Source: a virus
Reading direction: 5' to 3' (one strand)
DNA: 11,858 bases
UHGV virus genome: UHGV-0338394
The position numbers and the translations under genes were made by a program. Positions 1,786-11,453 of the stretch are shown here, in pieces (positions within the stretch are counted from its first letter, which is position 1; each line of letters opens with the position of its first letter). The notes under the pieces are model-generated. The model saw nothing but the letters and a program-made list of their open reading frames with translations, was not told the DNA's origin and made no database searches.

Positions 1786-2284
1786 ACCTGCCGCCCAGAA
1801 AGAAGCCTTTAATCTGGCTGGCATGTTGTCAAAAGTTGACATCTGCAACCTTACAAAACCTGATATTGATACCGCAGCGCCCGGAGTTCCGTTATCAGTA
1901 CGCGAGGCGCTTACCCTCAACAAAAAGATGGTGAGCCGTGCACAGGAAAAACTCTTAAAGGGTTACGGTTTTATCTGGTATGACCACCTAGCAGAGAAAA
2001 GCTGTTATAGTCCAAGCGTTGCTGCAAAATCAGCAACCGGGATTGGAACCCCGAACACACTAAGGGCGACACAGACGCCGAAAGCGTCTTTTTTTGCGTC
2101 CGATCACCACGCACATCAAATCAGCGGCCTTGCCCGTACTGTATCTATGGTGGCGTTAGTGGGGCTACGTTCGCGTAGGCCGGTTTCCTTTGTGTCCGGT
2201 AGTTCCAACCCTGCTAACGTCACCGCCACTATTAAGATTGGAACCTTATGCGGTGACTCCTTAAACACAAAGGAGGCTGCCATA
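1786..2284 (+). promoter_or_regulatory. Probable non-coding control region, with a P4-type RNA-immunity-like arrangement of short complementary motifs
   Basis: GATTGGAACC occurs at 2041-2050 and 2236-2245, and its near reverse complement GTTCCAACCC at 2202-2211 lies between them. A UUCG-tetraloop hairpin sits at 2165-2178 and an intrinsic terminator at 2073-2095. The only long ORF across the region (1724-2476) reads through that terminator and has a low-complexity middle section. Confidence 0.35.
2073..2095 (+). terminator. Rho-independent terminator (AGACGC-CGAAA-GCGTCT followed by a T-run)
   Basis: 6-bp GC-rich stem (2073-2078 pairing with 2084-2089), a 5-nt loop, and a 7-T run (2089-2095) whose first T also closes the stem. 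Confidence 0.6.
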
Positions 2285-7248: not shown

Positions 7249-7706
7249 CAGCACAAATTTCAGCATACGGGCGGCTGGTGGCAGATCCCCAGACCCGTAC
7301 CACAGCAAACGGTACAAGCATGGCAATGGGCCGGTTAGCGGTGGCACTGCCCTGCCATGCAGCAGAGGGCGGAGAGGTTACTTTCTGGCTGGGCGTGGTG
7401 GCATTCGGCAAACAGGCCGACGCACTGGCAGGACACGTTAAAGGCGATTTAGTCAGTGTTGCCGGAGCGATGCAGATCAATCAGTGGACGGGCAAGGATG
7501 GCGGTACACAGCAAGGTTATCAGGTAGTAGCCGACAGCGTGATCAGCGCCAGAACGGTACGCCCCGGCGGGAAGCGGGCCGAATCAGTCAAAGCAAGCGG
7601 AGCCAGCAGGGGCCACACAACACAATCCGCGCCGGGATGGGAGTTATATAATACCCCTGATGATTTTGACCAACGCCCACCATTCGACGATGAAACGCCA
7701 TTCTGA
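7245..7706 (+). CDS. Single-stranded DNA-binding (SSB) family protein with an acidic C-terminal tail, 153 aa
   Basis: The OB-fold core aligns by eye with E. coli SSB ([15 protein letters not shown] against [38 protein letters not shown] against [33 protein letters not shown] against RKWTDQSGQ). The C-terminus FDDETPF resembles the SSB tail DFDDDIPF. Confidence 0.85.
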   Translation: [153 protein letters not shown]

Positions 7707-7716
7707 GAGGGAAGAT

Positions 7717-8361
7717 ATGAGTACGCAACCCATCATTATTGAGTTCGGCAGCTATCGCTGGCCCAGACATCTTGCAATACATGAAGCAGGTCATGCGATA
7801 GCCGCATGGTTGTTCGGCATACAGGAGGTAGAAATTGCGTTATCGGGTAATAACCGAGTGGCAAAAACCTACCTTAGAGGAGATGTTGATGAATGTGGAG
7901 CTGTAGCGGTATGGCAGCACGGCAACTATCCACGGAATGTGGCTGAGGTTAAGTCTTACAACCTCTCGAATGATGACACCAGGTTACGTCTGATAGACCA
8001 GGTATGCCGGGATATGGTTATCTCTCTAGCTGGTATCGTCGCGCAATCACGCTATACGGGGGATGATATTAACGCACTGATGGAAACGTCCGGGAAAGCA
8101 GACATGAAAAATGTTCGTGATTTATCAGAGGTATACCGGGTGGCTGGTGGAGAGGATGCTGATATACAGAGAATATCCCTTTCCCGTGCTGAGGCGCTGA
8201 TTGCCCTGAAATGGTGGGATGTTATCGCGCTGGCGAAAATACTGGAGAACCGTAACCATATGCCTGCCAGAAACTTCCAGCGCATTATGGGTGATATTGA
8301 CAAGCCTGTACCAAAGCCTATGACGCTGGCTGAACTGGATGAATTGGTGGGTGAAGAATGA
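7717..8361 (+). CDS. Stand-alone HExxH zinc metallopeptidase, FtsH (M41)-like motif HEAGHAI, no AAA+ module, 214 aa
   Basis: GAGGG ribosome-binding site 5 nt before the ATG at 7717. RHLAIHEAGHAIAAWLFG matches the FtsH active site TAYHEAGHAI. The downstream LAGIVAQSRYTGDDINALMETSGKAD resembles the M41 region carrying the third zinc ligand. No Walker motifs are present. Confidence 0.65.
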   Translation: MSTQPIIIEFGSYRWPRHLAIHEAGHAIAAWLFGIQEVEIALSGNNRVAKTYLRGDVDECGAVAVWQHGNYPRNVAEVKSYNLSNDDTRLRLIDQVCRDMVISLAGIVAQSRYTGDDINALMETSGKADMKNVRDLSEVYRVAGGEDADIQRISLSRAEALIALKWWDVIALAKILENRNHMPARNFQRIMGDIDKPVPKPMTLAELDELVGEE

Positions 8362-8708: not shown

Positions 8709-8892
8709 TGTTCGTTCCGAGCGCAGCCTAAAATCAACGGCGTGACGCGGGCGATTCGCACCACAACCACACAGGGCGTCATAGAACGGGATAGACTTCT
8801 GCGACAATTTGCATTCGCCGCCAATATAGCAAGCCGTCCACATCAAGCAATAAACTATCACCGGGAGGGGGTAGTCAAATCTCTACAGCCCT

Positions 8893-8926
8893 GACTGTCC
8901 GGGACTGCCCGCCCCATCGTTTTTTT
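8893..8926 (+). terminator. Possible weak terminator after the four-gene operon
   Basis: GC-rich segment GTCCGGGACTGCCCGCCCC followed by a 7-T run (8920-8926). The stem is imperfect, and the T-run could instead pair with the downstream A-run. Confidence 0.25.
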
Positions 8927-8986
8927 ATACCCGCAAAAAATGAAATTTAATCCGGGCGTGTTTCATCCTTCCAGAGGGTATGACGT

Positions 8987-9172
8987 ATGACACCACGCGA
9001 AATAGCCTTATTGACCATCGCCAAACTTGAGCACGGAGGCCACCAGCTTACACAGGCAGATCAACGGGAGATAGAACGCTCAGTTAATGCCGATATAGCC
9101 CGGCGCGACAGGTTCCGCGAAATGATGCGAGCACCTGCCTACCAGTGGAAGAAGCCAGCGCCGCGCAGGTAG
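8987..9172 (+). CDS. Small hypothetical protein (61 aa)
   Basis: AGAGGG ribosome-binding site 8 nt upstream of the ATG. Charged, helical-looking sequence. Could be spurious. Confidence 0.4.
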   Translation: MTPREIALLTIAKLEHGGHQLTQADQREIERSVNADIARRDRFREMMRAPAYQWKKPAPRR

Positions 9173-9229
9173 ATATGGGATTATTCCACATGTAACTTAT
9201 GCGTATTAAGCAAATTTCCTTTATTCACC

Positions 9230-9259
9230 TTTACAGAATTGTGAGTACGTCAGTATCGT
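9230..9259 (+). promoter_or_regulatory. Candidate sigma70 promoter for the PRiA4_ORF3-like gene
   Basis: TTTACA at 9230-9235, an 18-bp spacer, and TATCGT at 9254-9259, in an AT-rich intergenic region. AGGA ribosome-binding site at 9284-9287 before the ATG at 9293. Confidence 0.3.
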
Positions 9260-9292
9260 TATCCTTCCGATTCGCATTTATTCAGGATTTGC

Positions 9293-9835
9293 ATGTACCA
9301 GCTAAAGATAACCATCCGAGACAGCAAACCACCTATATGGCGGCGTGTGCTGGTTCCAGAGCAAATCCCCTTTAGTAAACTTCATGCCGTGATCCAGTTA
9401 GCTTTTGGCTGGAATGACGAACACCTGTATATGTTCGAGAAAGGGCGTAAAGGTGATCCAGGTAGCGAGTATCACGTATGGGGTGAGGATGAAAGCATGG
9501 GTAACGCGGCAATCACGCCACTATGGGCGGCGCTCCAGAATGAGGGTGACAAGCTGGTTTATACGTATGACTTTGGCGACTGGTGGGATTGCGTCATTGT
9601 GCTGGAGAAGCAAACACACGATACGAGTAATCAGCCCATTAGCTGCCTGCGTGGGAAAGGCACCACCCCGGCGGAAAACTCAGGCGGCTTGCATGGTTAC
9701 AATGAATTGCTATTACAGGCCAGAGAGTCTGATAATCCTGAGCAGGCCGAGATCCACAATTTCCTGATGCTGGATATTGAACGCCGGGTTTACGACCTGA
9801 GCCGCATCAACGACAGATTGCAGGCTATTAACTGA
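9293..9835 (+). CDS. PRiA4_ORF3-like protein (plasmid pRiA4b ORF-3 family), 180 aa
   Basis: N-terminal signature LKITIRDSKPPIWRRVLVPEQIPFSKLHAVIQLAFGWNDEHLYMF matches my recollection of the family's PpIWRR...LH..IQ.aFgW..HLh.F pattern. Assigned from memory. Confidence 0.75.
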   Translation: MYQLKITIRDSKPPIWRRVLVPEQIPFSKLHAVIQLAFGWNDEHLYMFEKGRKGDPGSEYHVWGEDESMGNAAITPLWAALQNEGDKLVYTYDFGDWWDCVIVLEKQTHDTSNQPISCLRGKGTTPAENSGGLHGYNELLLQARESDNPEQAEIHNFLMLDIERRVYDLSRINDRLQAIN

Positions 9836-10187
9836 CCCGCATGTATTCACCTGATATTGCGTTATCAGCGCCGCCAGTATCGCGCATAACAGCGCACTGA
9901 CCTGGTAAACCGTAGCGCACGACCGTTGCGTTAGTTTCACCGCCGCGCCGTATCTGGCGCGATTCATACACTATCACCCGCTCAAGCAACCCACCAGCAA
10001 CCATGCTTTCCAGTGTGCGCCGGGTTGATTCGATCTGGTGGCGCTTATCGAACGACACCATGCCATGAAGCAGGTAGGCCACACCCGACACATCGAACGG
10101 CGGCGCACCAATCTCACCAGTCACCCATTCGAGGTTATCCGGTTCAAAGTAGCTAAGTATCTCTTTTTTGCGGCTGGTCATTCTCAT
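9828..10187 (-). CDS. Hypothetical protein, possibly a winged-helix DNA-binding protein (119 aa), convergent with and overlapping the PRiA4_ORF3-like gene
   Basis: Minus-strand ORF whose 3' end overlaps the 3' end of 9293-9835 by 8 nt. An AAGGAA ribosome-binding site lies upstream on the minus strand. The segment RRTLESMVAGGLLERV is reminiscent of a winged-helix recognition region, a weak inference. Confidence 0.55.
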   Translation of the reverse strand: MRMTSRKKEILSYFEPDNLEWVTGEIGAPPFDVSGVAYLLHGMVSFDKRHQIESTRRTLESMVAGGLLERVIVYESRQIRRGGETNATVVRYGLPGQCAVMRDTGGADNAISGEYMRVS

Positions 10188-10199
10188 GGCTGGCAGGTT

Positions 10200-10233
10200 C
10201 CTTATTGTGGGATAGCGGTATCATACAATAAGG
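10200..10233 (-). promoter_or_regulatory. Perfect 9-bp inverted repeat CCTTATTGT-N16-ACAATAAGG covering the ribosome-binding site of the minus-strand gene
   Basis: Arms at 10200-10208 and 10225-10233. On the minus-strand mRNA the AAGGAA site lies inside the proximal arm, 12-13 nt from the start codon at 10187. Confidence 0.4.
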
Positions 10234-10443
10234 CGCAAAAGATAAGAGGCCAGAACAGCAAGCATGAGAGCATAAAATGAGCAGCCAAAGACAGCACCTC
10301 AAAATACCGTGTACACAAGGGTGTACCTACTTAGAAAACGCATTACAAGGAATCCAGTAACCACGCAGCCTAGAGACTCCTACTCAATAAACAGATTCAA
10401 TTGAGTAACTCGTAACACTAATTCTTACTTTTCAGCCTTCACA

Positions 10444-10585: not shown

Positions 10586-10628
10586 ACAGATTTACTTTCT
10601 TTGCAATCGATATCACATGGAGTGGGCA

Positions 10629-11453
10629 ATGAACGAACATCATCAACCTTTTGAAGAAATACGGCATTATGGCACTGAAGGGCAAGAATTTTGGTCAGCT
10701 AGAGAATTGGCACCGTTACTGGATTATCGGGACTGGCGCAATTTTCAAAAGGTACTGGCCCGCGCGACTCAAGCGTGCGAAGCCAGCAATCAAGCTGCAT
10801 CTGACCATTTCGTTGAAACCACCAAAATGGTTGTATTAGGTTCAGGGGCTCAACGAGAACTTGAAGATGTTCATCTCTCCCGCTATGCCTGTTACCTGGT
10901 AGTACAAAACGGCGACCCTGCGAAACCGGTTATTGCGGCAGGGCAAACTTATTTTGCTATCCAGACCCGACGGCAGGAGCTGGCTGACGATGAAGCTTTC
11001 AGGCAACTTCGTGAAGACGAAAAGCGTCTTTTTCTGAGAAATGAATTGAAAGAACATAACAAACAATTGGTTGAGGCAGCGCAGCAAGCTGGGGGAGCGA
11101 CAGCTATCGATTTCGCCATATTTCAGAATCATGGTTACCGGGGGCTGTATGGTGGATTAGATCAGAAAGCTATTCATCAGCGGAAGGGGCTGAAAAAGAA
11201 TCAGAAGATCCTGGATCATATGGGTTCAACAGAACTGGCGGCTAATCTCTTTCGAGCTACCCAAACAGAAGAAAAACTCAAGCGGGATGGCGTGAATTCA
11301 AAACAGCAAGCAAACACCACACACTTTGACGTGGGTCGCAAGGTGAGGCAAACCATTCAGGAACTTGGCGGAACCATGCCTGAGGAGTTGCCGACCCCGC
11401 AGGTCAGCATCAAGCAGTTGGAAAACAGTGTAAAAATTACAGAGAAGAAATAG
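10629..11453 (+). CDS. dinD: DNA damage-inducible protein D (274 aa)
   Basis: Translation beginning MNEHHQPFEEIRHYGTEGQEFWSARELAPLLDYRDW matches my recollection of E. coli DinD. GGAG ribosome-binding site 6 nt before the ATG at 10629, which I prefer to the ORF-track start at 10617. The LexA box lies immediately upstream. Confidence 0.88.
   Translation: MNEHHQPFEEIRHYGTEGQEFWSARELAPLLDYRDWRNFQKVLARATQACEASNQAASDHFVETTKMVVLGSGAQRELEDVHLSRYACYLVVQNGDPAKPVIAAGQTYFAIQTRRQELADDEAFRQLREDEKRLFLRNELKEHNKQLVEAAQQAGGATAIDFAIFQNHGYRGLYGGLDQKAIHQRKGLKKNQKILDHMGSTELAANLFRATQTEEKLKRDGVNSKQQANTTHFDVGRKVRQTIQELGGTMPEELPTPQVSIKQLENSVKITEKK

What the first reader, a model, noticed from the sequence alone, without database searches (positions are those of the whole stretch)
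9293..10233. Convergent, 3'-overlapping gene pair at the accessory end: PRiA4_ORF3-like protein and a small putative DNA-binding protein
Seen in sequence: the + strand gene (9293-9835) and the minus-strand gene (9828-10187) overlap tail-to-tail by 8 nt, so their transcripts must be antisense at the 3' ends. The pair has its own AT-rich promoter region (9173-9292) and lies between the four-gene operon and the chromosomal junction. PRiA4_ORF3-family proteins are widespread on plasmids and mobile elements but I know of no established function. The arrangement suggests a two-component cargo module (regulator plus effector, or toxin/antitoxin-like). It may instead be a separate islet.
Basis: partly seen in the sequence, partly recalled or inferred. 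Interest (0 to 1): 0.55.

Follow-up and report, generated by a model that had tools for sequence, protein, structure and literature searches.

The report
Accessory gene slot in phage satellite
The two overlapping genes are real, but they are not a dedicated pair: the PRiA4-family gene is one of many interchangeable cargo genes sitting between two conserved "frame" genes at the far end of a phage-parasitic island, and what it does is still unknown.

Summary
9293-9835(+) is a PF07929 protein. 9828-10187(-) is a real 119-aa gene with a predicted winged-helix fold. They overlap tail-to-tail by 8 nt, and both are under purifying selection.

The "two-component module" reading is only partly supported. 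The window is a PICI-type satellite between yicC and dinD. The winged-helix gene (wH119) and the 61-aa gene at 8987-9172 (orf61) form a conserved convergent frame around a variable slot. Of 97 non-redundant wH119 loci, 34 hold PRiA4 and 14 are empty. The rest hold TA pairs, MazF-like or ImmA-like genes, PerC, IS elements or unknowns. Two independent PRiA4 deletions leave the frame intact. A 77%-identical PRiA4 exists without wH119, and distant PF07929 genes are stand-alone.

The unit that actually moves is 8863-10232 (orf61-PRiA4-wH119). It is 98.6% identical in EcCIMP1, an experimentally validated PICI with an unmapped superinfection-immunity phenotype. wH119 carries a family-wide palindromic operator over its own promoter.

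PRiA4's function remains unknown. It is an acidic beta-grasp protein and recurs as an antisense insert in phage head and packaging clusters. This is a new member of a known kind, of moderate interest.

The parts
8863..8925 (+). Terminator-like hairpin plus T7 run; left border of the horizontally shared module
   Evidence: Identity with the O111 and EcCIMP1 islands starts at 8863. The hairpin is predicted at 8863-8915 and followed by UUUUUUU. The overall fold z-score is not significant, and the consensus scan did not flag it. Its role is inferred.
8987..9172 (+). orf61: 61-aa basic protein (pI 10.8), the conserved left frame gene of the slot
   Evidence: ORF. An orf61-family gene is convergent with wH119 in 59 of 97 non-redundant loci. 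It has a conserved C-terminal AYQWKKPAPRR. dN/dS is about 0.3. It matches phrog_7271, of unknown function. It is 61/61 identical in EcCIMP1.
9173..9292 (+). AT-rich spacer (GC 0.35) with one sigma-70-like match at 9230-9259; possible PRiA4 promoter
   Evidence: It is not conserved with PRiA4 in other lineages (L008, L041) and is replaced by a TA pair in L017 and L104. Promoter function is inferred only.
9293..9835 (+). PRiA4_ORF3 (PF07929) protein, 180 aa, acidic (pI 5.1); the cargo gene
9828..9835 (.). 8-nt tail-to-tail overlap TTAACTGA (the two stop codons plus 2 nt)
   Evidence: It is conserved in all PRiA4+wH119 loci, including the 71-73% identity lineage.
9828..10187 (-). wH119: 119-aa winged-helix protein, the conserved right frame gene and last gene of the island
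   Evidence: The recognition-helix residues E53 S54 R56 R57 T58 L59 are invariant. The family is narrow: 90 representatives among 1.84 billion proteins.
10198..10233 (-). Conserved promoter/operator palindrome. Outer arms are CTTATTGT (10201-10208 and 10225-10232). A TATGAT -10-like hexamer lies at 10220-10225 and an AAGGAA Shine-Dalgarno at 10198-10203. This is the right border of the shared module.
   Evidence: It is present in 85 and 83 of 90 non-redundant loci, and information content falls to background beyond about -47. There is no compensatory covariation: 18 one-sided versus 3 compensated changes.
10309..10329 (.). attR core, a direct repeat of the sequence at the yicC-int junction
   Evidence: GTGTACACAAGGGTGTACC(C/T)A occurs at L001 2486 and 15160, which corresponds to window 10309-10329.

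Best explanation
The window is a PICI-type phage satellite, with a P4-family integrase just outside the window, AlpA, AntA/Icd with a C4 antisense RNA, a P4-type primase and SSB, and no structural genes. It is integrated between yicC and dinD.

At its attR-proximal end, two conserved genes face each other: orf61 (8987-9172, +) and the winged-helix gene wH119 (9828-10187, -). The space between them is a cargo slot whose content turns over by recombination in the conserved flanks. PRiA4 (9293-9835) is one single-gene cargo occupying that slot. The 8-nt overlap is simply the compact junction left where the cargo abuts the 3' end of wH119.

Shown here: the slot is variable, PRiA4 can be lost with the frame intact, PRiA4 exists independently elsewhere, and the three-gene unit 8863-10232 is exchanged between divergent PICIs.

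Inferred:
(i) wH119 is a dimeric autoregulator that binds the palindrome overlapping its own -10 and Shine-Dalgarno sequences.
(ii) With no terminator between them, the convergent transcripts of orf61/PRiA4 and wH119 interfere with each other.
(iii) PRiA4 acts alone as a small acidic protein-binding factor in phage-satellite-host conflict rather than as an enzyme or DNA binder. That makes it a candidate for the unmapped superinfection immunity of EcCIMP1.
For: Element type and borders.

A circular 19.2-kb Klebsiella record shows int, then attP, then wH119.

Slot census: 154 loci collapse to 97 non-redundant groups, 34 with PRiA4 and 63 without, of which 14 are empty. PRiA4 is present in 32/42 groups where wH119 is at least 85% identical to the window's, in 2/19 at 70-85%, and in 0/35 below 70%.

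Alternative cargo: a Panacea TA pair in 7 groups, a PemK/MazF-like toxin, an ImmA/IrrE CapP-like peptidase, HTH/RHH proteins, PerC, IS elements and an integrase.

Independent PRiA4 deletions in L103 and L146 leave wH119 and orf61 intact. PRiA4 occurs without wH119 in L041, and PF07929 genes are stand-alone elsewhere.

orf61 and wH119 overlap by 4 nt when they are adjacent.

The module 8863-10232 is 98.6% identical in EcCIMP1, while the rest of the islands match only in patches at 82-88%.

Operator. Fold. Acidic pI across the family.

EcCIMP1 biology: PMC11773190.
Against: Within E. coli, PRiA4 is essentially never seen apart from wH119. The pair has stayed linked, with an identical junction, across dS above 1.5. 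Some functional coupling therefore cannot be excluded.

No canonical defence system was found among the alternative cargo; only TA-like and defence-associated domains appeared. 'Conflict slot' is therefore guilt by association.

DNA binding by wH119 and promoter activity are predictions. The wH119 model has only moderate confidence (pLDDT 73.5), and the protein is near-neutral in charge.

No expression data were available.
Confidence: 0.65

Rival explanations
1. This is a dedicated two-gene module. wH119 is the antitoxin or repressor and PRiA4 the toxin or effector, coupled through their antisense 3' ends.
For: PRiA4 is always beside wH119 in E. coli (375 vs 378 genomes). The distribution is asymmetric in the way expected for a toxin and its antitoxin: there are orphan wH119 genes but few orphan PRiA4 genes. 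The 8-nt junction is conserved over dS above 1.5. PRiA4 is found only with the short-wing 119-aa form of wH119. The same slot hosts true TA pairs.
Against: wH119 proteins at 88-99% identity occur with no PRiA4, with other cargo or with an empty slot. A 77%-identical PRiA4 occurs without wH119. None of 68 distant viral PF07929 loci, nor any of 4 genomic ones, has a wH119 homolog. The genes are convergent, not an operon. The operator half-site occurs exactly only at wH119's own promoter. wH119 shows the same tight convergence with orf61. There is no PADLOC hit.
Confidence: 0.15
2. PRiA4 is a packaging- or capsid-directed factor that binds a terminase, portal or head protein of a helper or competing phage. 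Its position next to packaging genes would then be functional rather than incidental.
For: In 40 of 45 analysable distant viral loci, the immediate neighbour is a lambda-type head or packaging gene: gpA terminase, portal, capsid E, cement or head-tail attachment. In phage relatives of the frame, orf61 directly follows terS-terL. PRiA4 is a small acidic beta-grasp protein, which suits protein binding. PICIs are known to interfere with helper packaging (established knowledge of Ppi and Rpp proteins, recalled from memory).
Against: The viral loci are phylogenetically clustered into about four independent placements. Viral-contig collections are enriched for structural genes. Late operons are known permissive sites for morons. 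The opposite-strand orientation argues for expression uncoupled from the late genes. Genomic PF07929 genes also sit in housekeeping contexts.
Confidence: 0.12
3. wH119 is an att-site architectural protein or recombination directionality factor, not a transcription regulator. The conserved palindrome would then be part of the recombination machinery.
For: wH119 is the last gene of the island and its palindrome ends 76 bp from the attR core. In the circular form it faces the integrase across attP. Excisionases are small winged-helix proteins (general knowledge).
Against: The palindrome travels with wH119 across elements that have different integrases and att sites: dinD, tRNA-Thr, hpt and guaA-side. 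In O157 about 4.6 kb of other genes separates wH119 from attR. The palindrome brackets a -10 and contains the Shine-Dalgarno sequence, as an autoregulatory operator would. AlpA is the demonstrated excision regulator in EcCIMP1 (PMC11773190).
Confidence: 0.06
4. PRiA4 is a relic passenger gene of a Mutator/IS256-type transposon that landed in the slot.
For: PF07929 genes are passengers in ISAzba1-group Mutator transposons (PMC3942029). L022 has an IS256-family transposase directly upstream of PRiA4.
Against: No transposase or terminal inverted repeats accompany PRiA4 in the window or in most loci. No inverted repeats were found around the L022 transposase. PRiA4 is under strong purifying selection.
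Confidence: 0.03

Closest known systems
EcCIMP1, a phage-inducible chromosomal island of E. coli MP1 (Pick, Stadel & Raivio 2025, PMC11773190)
   Same: It has the same element class and gene repertoire: int, AlpA, AntA, Icd-like, primase and PerC. It carries the same orf61-PRiA4-wH119 module at its distal end, at 98.6% nucleotide identity over 1,370 bp (orf61 61/61, PRiA4 179/180, wH119 115/119 residues identical).
   Different: It uses a different integration site (tRNA-Thr/proA rather than yicC/dinD), and the rest of the island is largely unrelated. The paper does not discuss these three genes. Its superinfection-immunity phenotype is unmapped.
[quoted passage not shown] 2022, from memory) and of PICIs (Fillol-Salom et al. 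2022, from memory)
   Same: Conserved flanking core genes bracket rapidly exchanged cargo near an end of the element. The cargo is rich in conflict-type genes.
   Different: This element lacks psu, delta and sid, so it is not P4-like. The frame genes (orf61, wH119) and their palindromic operator are not among the described hotspot borders. Empty slots are common here (14 of 97), whereas PMC13586616 reports them as extremely rare in P4. No canonical defence system was detected in the slot.
MM3350 (PDB 2I1S), a structural-genomics protein of Methanosarcina mazei and founding structure of the PF07929/MM3350-like fold
   Different: It is deposited as a hypothetical protein and no function is known for it either. 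The enterobacterial clade replaces the family's W-x-H and CPPED motifs with W-D-C and TPAEN.
MarR/ArsR-type winged-helix autorepressors
   Different: It has no sequence-family membership. The outer half-sites are unusually far apart (8-bp arms separated by 16 bp, within roughly 15-bp extended arms). It has a C-terminal beta extension. DNA binding is untested.
Phage morons (independently expressed accessory genes inserted in phage operons; concept from Juhala et al. 2000, from memory)
   Same: PRiA4 is a single accessory gene, dispensable for the element. Elsewhere PF07929 genes are inserted antisense within late operons.
   Different: A promoter and terminator of its own are not demonstrated here. 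In the window PRiA4 is co-oriented with the upstream island genes.
Type II toxin-antitoxin modules
   Same: It is a small gene pair on a mobile element, one member is a predicted DNA binder, and true TA pairs occupy the same slot in other loci.
   Different: The genes are convergent rather than co-transcribed, they do not obligately co-occur, and PRiA4 has no known toxin fold.

Membership tests
PF07929 PRiA4_ORF3 / MM3350-like | Full-length match to the Pfam HMM above the gathering score | tested here: met
   146.5 bits against a cut-off of 26.6, E 8.3e-43, covering residues 2-170.
PF07929 PRiA4_ORF3 / MM3350-like | Same fold as the solved family member 2I1S | tested here: met
Winged-helix DNA-binding proteins (ArsR/MarR-like) | Helix-turn-helix followed by a beta-hairpin wing | tested here: met
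Winged-helix DNA-binding proteins (ArsR/MarR-like) | Sequence membership in a curated wHTH family | tested here: not met
   No Pfam, NCBIfam or PDB sequence match.
Winged-helix DNA-binding proteins (ArsR/MarR-like) | Sequence-specific DNA binding | not testable with these tools
   Only indirect evidence: an invariant recognition helix together with a family-wide conserved palindrome at its own promoter.
Type II toxin-antitoxin system | Two adjacent co-transcribed genes | tested here: not met
   The genes are convergent with overlapping 3' ends.
Type II toxin-antitoxin system | Obligate co-occurrence of the two partners | tested here: not met
   63 of 97 wH119 loci lack PRiA4. PRiA4 occurs without wH119 in L041 and in distant loci.
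Type II toxin-antitoxin system | Toxicity of one partner that the other neutralises | not testable with these tools
   This needs expression experiments.
Known anti-phage defence systems (PADLOC-DB 2.0) | HMM match to a component of a known or candidate system | tested here: not met
   No hit for PRiA4, wH119 or orf61. The EcCIMP1 authors likewise found none with PADLOC or DefenseFinder.
Phage-inducible chromosomal island (PICI) | Integrase, AlpA, primase/replication module, att repeats, size of about 10-20 kb, no structural or lysis genes | tested here: met
   L001 annotation, Pfam, att repeat. The island spans about 12.7 kb between the att cores.
Phage-inducible chromosomal island (PICI) | Helper-phage-dependent excision, packaging and transfer | not testable with these tools
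   This was shown experimentally for EcCIMP1, which carries the same module (PMC11773190), but not for this island.
Cargo/defence hotspot of a mobile element | Conserved flanking genes with variable intervening content across related elements | tested here: met
   about 126 ORF families across the 97 groups' downstream regions (some are core genes or spurious ORFs), and 14 empty slots.
Cargo/defence hotspot of a mobile element | Enrichment of recognised defence systems in the slot | tested here: inconclusive
   Only TA pairs, a MazF-like toxin and a CapP/ImmA-like peptidase were recognised. Most cargo is unannotated.

The most novel reading that the evidence does not exclude
PF07929/PRiA4_ORF3 is a widespread family with no known function, found in bacteria, archaea, plasmids, transposons and phages. 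The most novel reading is that it is a stand-alone factor in conflicts between mobile elements that targets phage head or packaging proteins. In PICIs such as EcCIMP1 it would then be the determinant, alone or tuned by the convergent winged-helix gene, of the unexplained helper-dependent superinfection immunity.
Probability: 0.15. Interest if true: 0.7.

Novelty: new member of a known kind. Interest (0 to 1): 0.4.

Why it matters
Variable cargo slots in phage satellites are a productive source of new anti-phage and anti-defence genes. This one has a clearly defined frame: orf61 and an autoregulated winged-helix gene with a conserved palindrome. Neither appears in the hotspot descriptions I could read. 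The slot is present in roughly 10% of complete E. coli genomes, including O157:H7 and O111, and in an experimentally tractable PICI whose immunity phenotype has no assigned gene. If PRiA4 proves responsible, a large domain family of unknown function would gain its first function. If not, the finding is still a useful map of an ordinary accessory region and a caution against reading gene overlap as functional pairing.

Tried and rejected
- Rfam scan of the window: nothing in 8860-10330; the only hits are C4/isrK at 2005-2230.
- Operator half-site elsewhere in the window: exact copies occur only at the wH119 promoter, and one-mismatch counts are at chance level. I dropped the idea that wH119 directly controls a PRiA4 or orf61 promoter through the same site.
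- RNA or DNA hairpin reading of the palindrome: rejected for lack of compensatory changes.
- Leader 8855-8990 as a structured RNA: fold z-score -0.83, not significant.
- PADLOC, NCBIfam and PHROGs gave nothing useful for PRiA4 or wH119.
- PDB sequence search with the wH119 profile: no hit.
- Literature searches for PRiA4_ORF3, PF07929, the InterPro accessions and MM3350 found no functional study.
- The apparent 61%-identical PRiA4 (P0146/L040) paired with a 94%-identical wH119 looked like uncoupled divergence. It is a frameshifted copy.
- The L022 transposase as part of a PRiA4-carrying transposon: no inverted repeats found.
- The afdb50 fold library was unavailable, and P0133 was not on record.

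Full report
OBSERVATION.
The two ORFs exist exactly as described: 9293-9835(+), 180 aa, and 9828-10187(-), 119 aa. They share 8 nt, TTAACTGA, which is the two stop codons plus two bases. The + gene is a strong PF07929 PRiA4_ORF3 member (E 8.3e-43). Its only solved relative is the unannotated structural-genomics protein 2I1S.

WHAT THE WINDOW IS.
The window is 100% identical to E. coli 2017.17.03CC, in which an island lies between yicC and dinD. Its gene order is: P4-type integrase, AlpA, AntA antirepressor, Icd-like, P4-family primase, SSB, four small genes, a 61-aa gene (orf61, 8987-9172), PRiA4, wH119, then dinD. A C4 antisense RNA/isrK/c4-a1b1 set lies at 2005-2230.

A 21-bp direct repeat marks attL and attR. 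The attR core is at window 10309-10329, so wH119 is the last gene of the island. A 19.2-kb circular Klebsiella 'plasmid' carries the same gene set, with integrase and wH119 divergent across the presumed attP. It looks like an excised copy. The repertoire and size fit a PICI.

THE PAIR IS NOT AN OBLIGATE PAIR.
I collected wH119 loci from species-representative genomes, IMG/VR and metagenomes, plus contig look-ups. Of these, 154 were usable, and they collapse to 97 non-redundant groups. PRiA4 is adjacent in 34 groups and absent in 63. It is present in 32/42 groups where wH119 is at least 85% identical to the window's, in 2/19 at 70-85%, and in 0/35 below 70%.

The steadier partner of wH119 is an orf61-family gene, convergent with it in 59 of 97 groups. 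The interval between them ranges from a 4-nt overlap or about 20 bp (14 empty groups) to several kb. Other occupants are:
- a toxin plus Panacea-antitoxin pair (7 groups);
- a PemK/MazF-like toxin;
- an ImmA/IrrE (CapP-like) peptidase with a membrane protein;
- an RHH-like family, F1, co-oriented with wH119 (12 groups);
- HTH proteins, PerC regulators (O157:H7), IS elements, integrases and many unknowns.

L103 (wH119 99% identical) and L146 (93%) carry two different internal deletions of PRiA4, with wH119 and orf61 intact. L140, L172 and L019 lack PRiA4 cleanly, with homology breaking at the wH119 stop codon.

In the other direction, a 77%-identical Serratia PRiA4 sits next to Phd/Doc with no wH119 or orf61 in the locus. 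Four distant genomic PF07929 genes and 68 distant viral ones have no wH119 homolog.

In complete E. coli genomes, PRiA4 is in 375 and wH119 in 538. About 155 of the latter are 60-80% identical copies without PRiA4.

What remains in favour of coupling is this. Inside E. coli, PRiA4 is essentially always next to wH119. The TTAACTGA junction is also identical in a lineage where both proteins are only 71-73% identical and dS exceeds 1.5.

THE UNIT THAT MOVES.
Alignment with an unrelated island at tRNA-Thr/proA in O111 shows identity starting at 8863 and ending at 10232. The start coincides with a terminator-like hairpin plus a T7 run. The end coincides exactly with the outer arm of a palindrome upstream of wH119.

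The same 1,370 bp is 98.6% identical in EcCIMP1 of E. coli MP1. There orf61 is 61/61, PRiA4 179/180 and wH119 115/119 residues identical, while the rest of the two islands matches only in patches at 82-88%. So the three-gene unit orf61-PRiA4-wH119 is exchanged between divergent PICIs. Relative to the window, PRiA4 is nearly invariant across E. coli (291 genomes at 99% or more), whereas wH119 mostly lies at 95-99%. This suggests recombination within the module as well.

wH119 AND ITS OPERATOR.
The roughly 45 bp upstream of the wH119 start is CTTATTGTA(T/G)GATA-N4-TATCCCACAATAAGGAA. It is conserved in 85 and 83 of 90 non-redundant loci (left and right halves), down to 53% protein identity. Information content falls to background beyond about -47, and everything further out is unrelated between loci.

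It is a long palindrome that brackets a TATGAT -10-like hexamer and contains the Shine-Dalgarno sequence. At the only variable arm position there are 18 one-sided changes and 3 compensated ones, so it behaves as a symmetric protein site and not as a hairpin. The exact half-site occurs nowhere else in the window. The predicted recognition helix (E53 S54 R56 R57 T58 L59) is invariant.

I infer that wH119 is an autoregulator that binds this site. This is not shown.

PRiA4.

The family is uniformly acidic (pI 4.3-5.8). That argues against classic DNA binding and for a protein-binding or mimic role. The invariant residues are P13, W16, R17, R18, H31, G39, H44, P126, G132 and Y136, plus the Y-x-YDFGD-W motif. 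The literature held here contains no functional study. The family appears only as a passenger in ISAzba1-group Mutator transposons.

An unexpected pattern emerged in phages. In 40 of 45 analysable distant viral loci, the PF07929 gene lies next to lambda-type head or packaging genes. It usually sits on the opposite strand and convergent within 60 nt. In L211 it ends 2 nt from the stop of terminase gpA. In phage relatives of the frame, orf61 directly follows terS-terL. So PF07929 genes look like recurrent stand-alone inserts ('morons') in or beside packaging modules, and tight tail-to-tail junctions are typical for them.

LINK TO EXPERIMENT.
EcCIMP1 is a validated PICI. Helper phage Kapi1 induces, circularises and transduces it (PMC11773190). 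It gives Kapi1 lysogens extra superinfection immunity. PADLOC and DefenseFinder find no system in it, and the authors suggest a novel mechanism. The paper does not discuss orf61, PRiA4 or wH119. These genes are therefore concrete, untested candidates in a tractable system.

VERDICT.
The best reading is a single-gene cargo (PRiA4) in a variable slot framed by two conserved convergent genes at the attR end of PICI-type satellites and related prophages. This is a known kind of architecture with a previously undescribed frame. The function of PRiA4 remains open. I favour a stand-alone protein-binding role in phage-satellite conflict, with low confidence.

Noticed in passing
window 2005-2230 (with AntA 777-1610 and the Icd-like region downstream): Rfam finds C4 antisense RNA, isrK and the c4 a1/b1 target (E 1e-11 to 1e-15) next to an AntA antirepressor and an Icd-like gene. 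This is a P1/P7-type immunity (c4-icd-ant) module inside a PICI-like island.
   Followed up: no
L195-L262 (IMG/VR), e.g. L211 2555-3268(+): Distant PF07929 genes are embedded, mostly antisense, in lambda-type head and packaging clusters: next to gpA terminase, portal, capsid E, cement or head-tail attachment genes. This holds in 40 of 45 analysable loci. In L211 the tail-to-tail gap to gpA is 2 nt.
   Followed up: partly
L007 5377-5889, L029 6432-6872, L064, L066 and others: In lineages where the winged-helix protein has a longer wing (123-124 aa), the commonest slot occupant is an unannotated 141-205-aa family (F1). It has an RHH-like N-terminus and lies immediately downstream on the same strand. 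This is a possible true operon partner of the winged-helix gene.
   Followed up: partly
CP031370.2 (L042), CP031371.2, NZ_CP033626.1, NZ_CP146545.1 (L043): Four 17-23-kb 'non-mobilizable plasmids' of Klebsiella and Raoultella carry the module. At least CP031370.2 has the island gene set with integrase and the winged-helix gene facing each other. They look like excised circular PICIs deposited as plasmids.
   Followed up: partly
L002 10836-11018 and 11838-12023: The O111 island has two orf61-family genes (62% and 100% identical to the window's). One lies upstream of a PerC gene and the other upstream of PRiA4. This hints at tandem 'orf61 + cargo' cassettes.
   Followed up: no
window 7660-8361: A 233-aa protein with a HEAGH motif gives only a weak M50B-like peptidase hit. 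It is conserved in several related islands (family F11; 90% identical in L037). Its function is unknown.
   Followed up: no
window 10617-11453: Chromosomal dinD matches PADLOC candidate-system models PDC-S13 and PDC-S05 and a type I specificity-subunit model very strongly (E 5e-124). The island therefore sits beside a gene listed among candidate defence components.
   Followed up: no
L020, L119, L131, L133, L166-L173 (family F2, 125-133 aa): In islands that lack orf61, a small protein with a GKRKGAGAPLGNTNAVKHG motif (terminase-small-subunit-like by eye) takes its place next to the slot. DUF2280 does the same in L026, L177 and L041. The distal end of these satellites therefore looks derived from a phage packaging module.
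   Followed up: no
window 9293-10233 versus E. coli genomes: Relative to the window, PRiA4 is at least 99% identical in 291 genomes, but the adjacent winged-helix gene is at least 99% identical in only one (most lie at 95-99%). The window therefore carries a minority wH119 allele joined to the majority PRiA4 allele, which suggests recombination near the gene junction.
   Followed up: no
L039 (E. coli ATCC 43889, O157:H7-type island at dinD): In the O157-type island at the same att site, the winged-helix homolog (65% identical) is flanked by PerC-family genes. It is followed by about 4.6 kb of further cargo (YeeE/YedE transporter, Q antiterminator) before dinD. This amounts to a second variable region beyond the winged-helix gene.
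   Followed up: no
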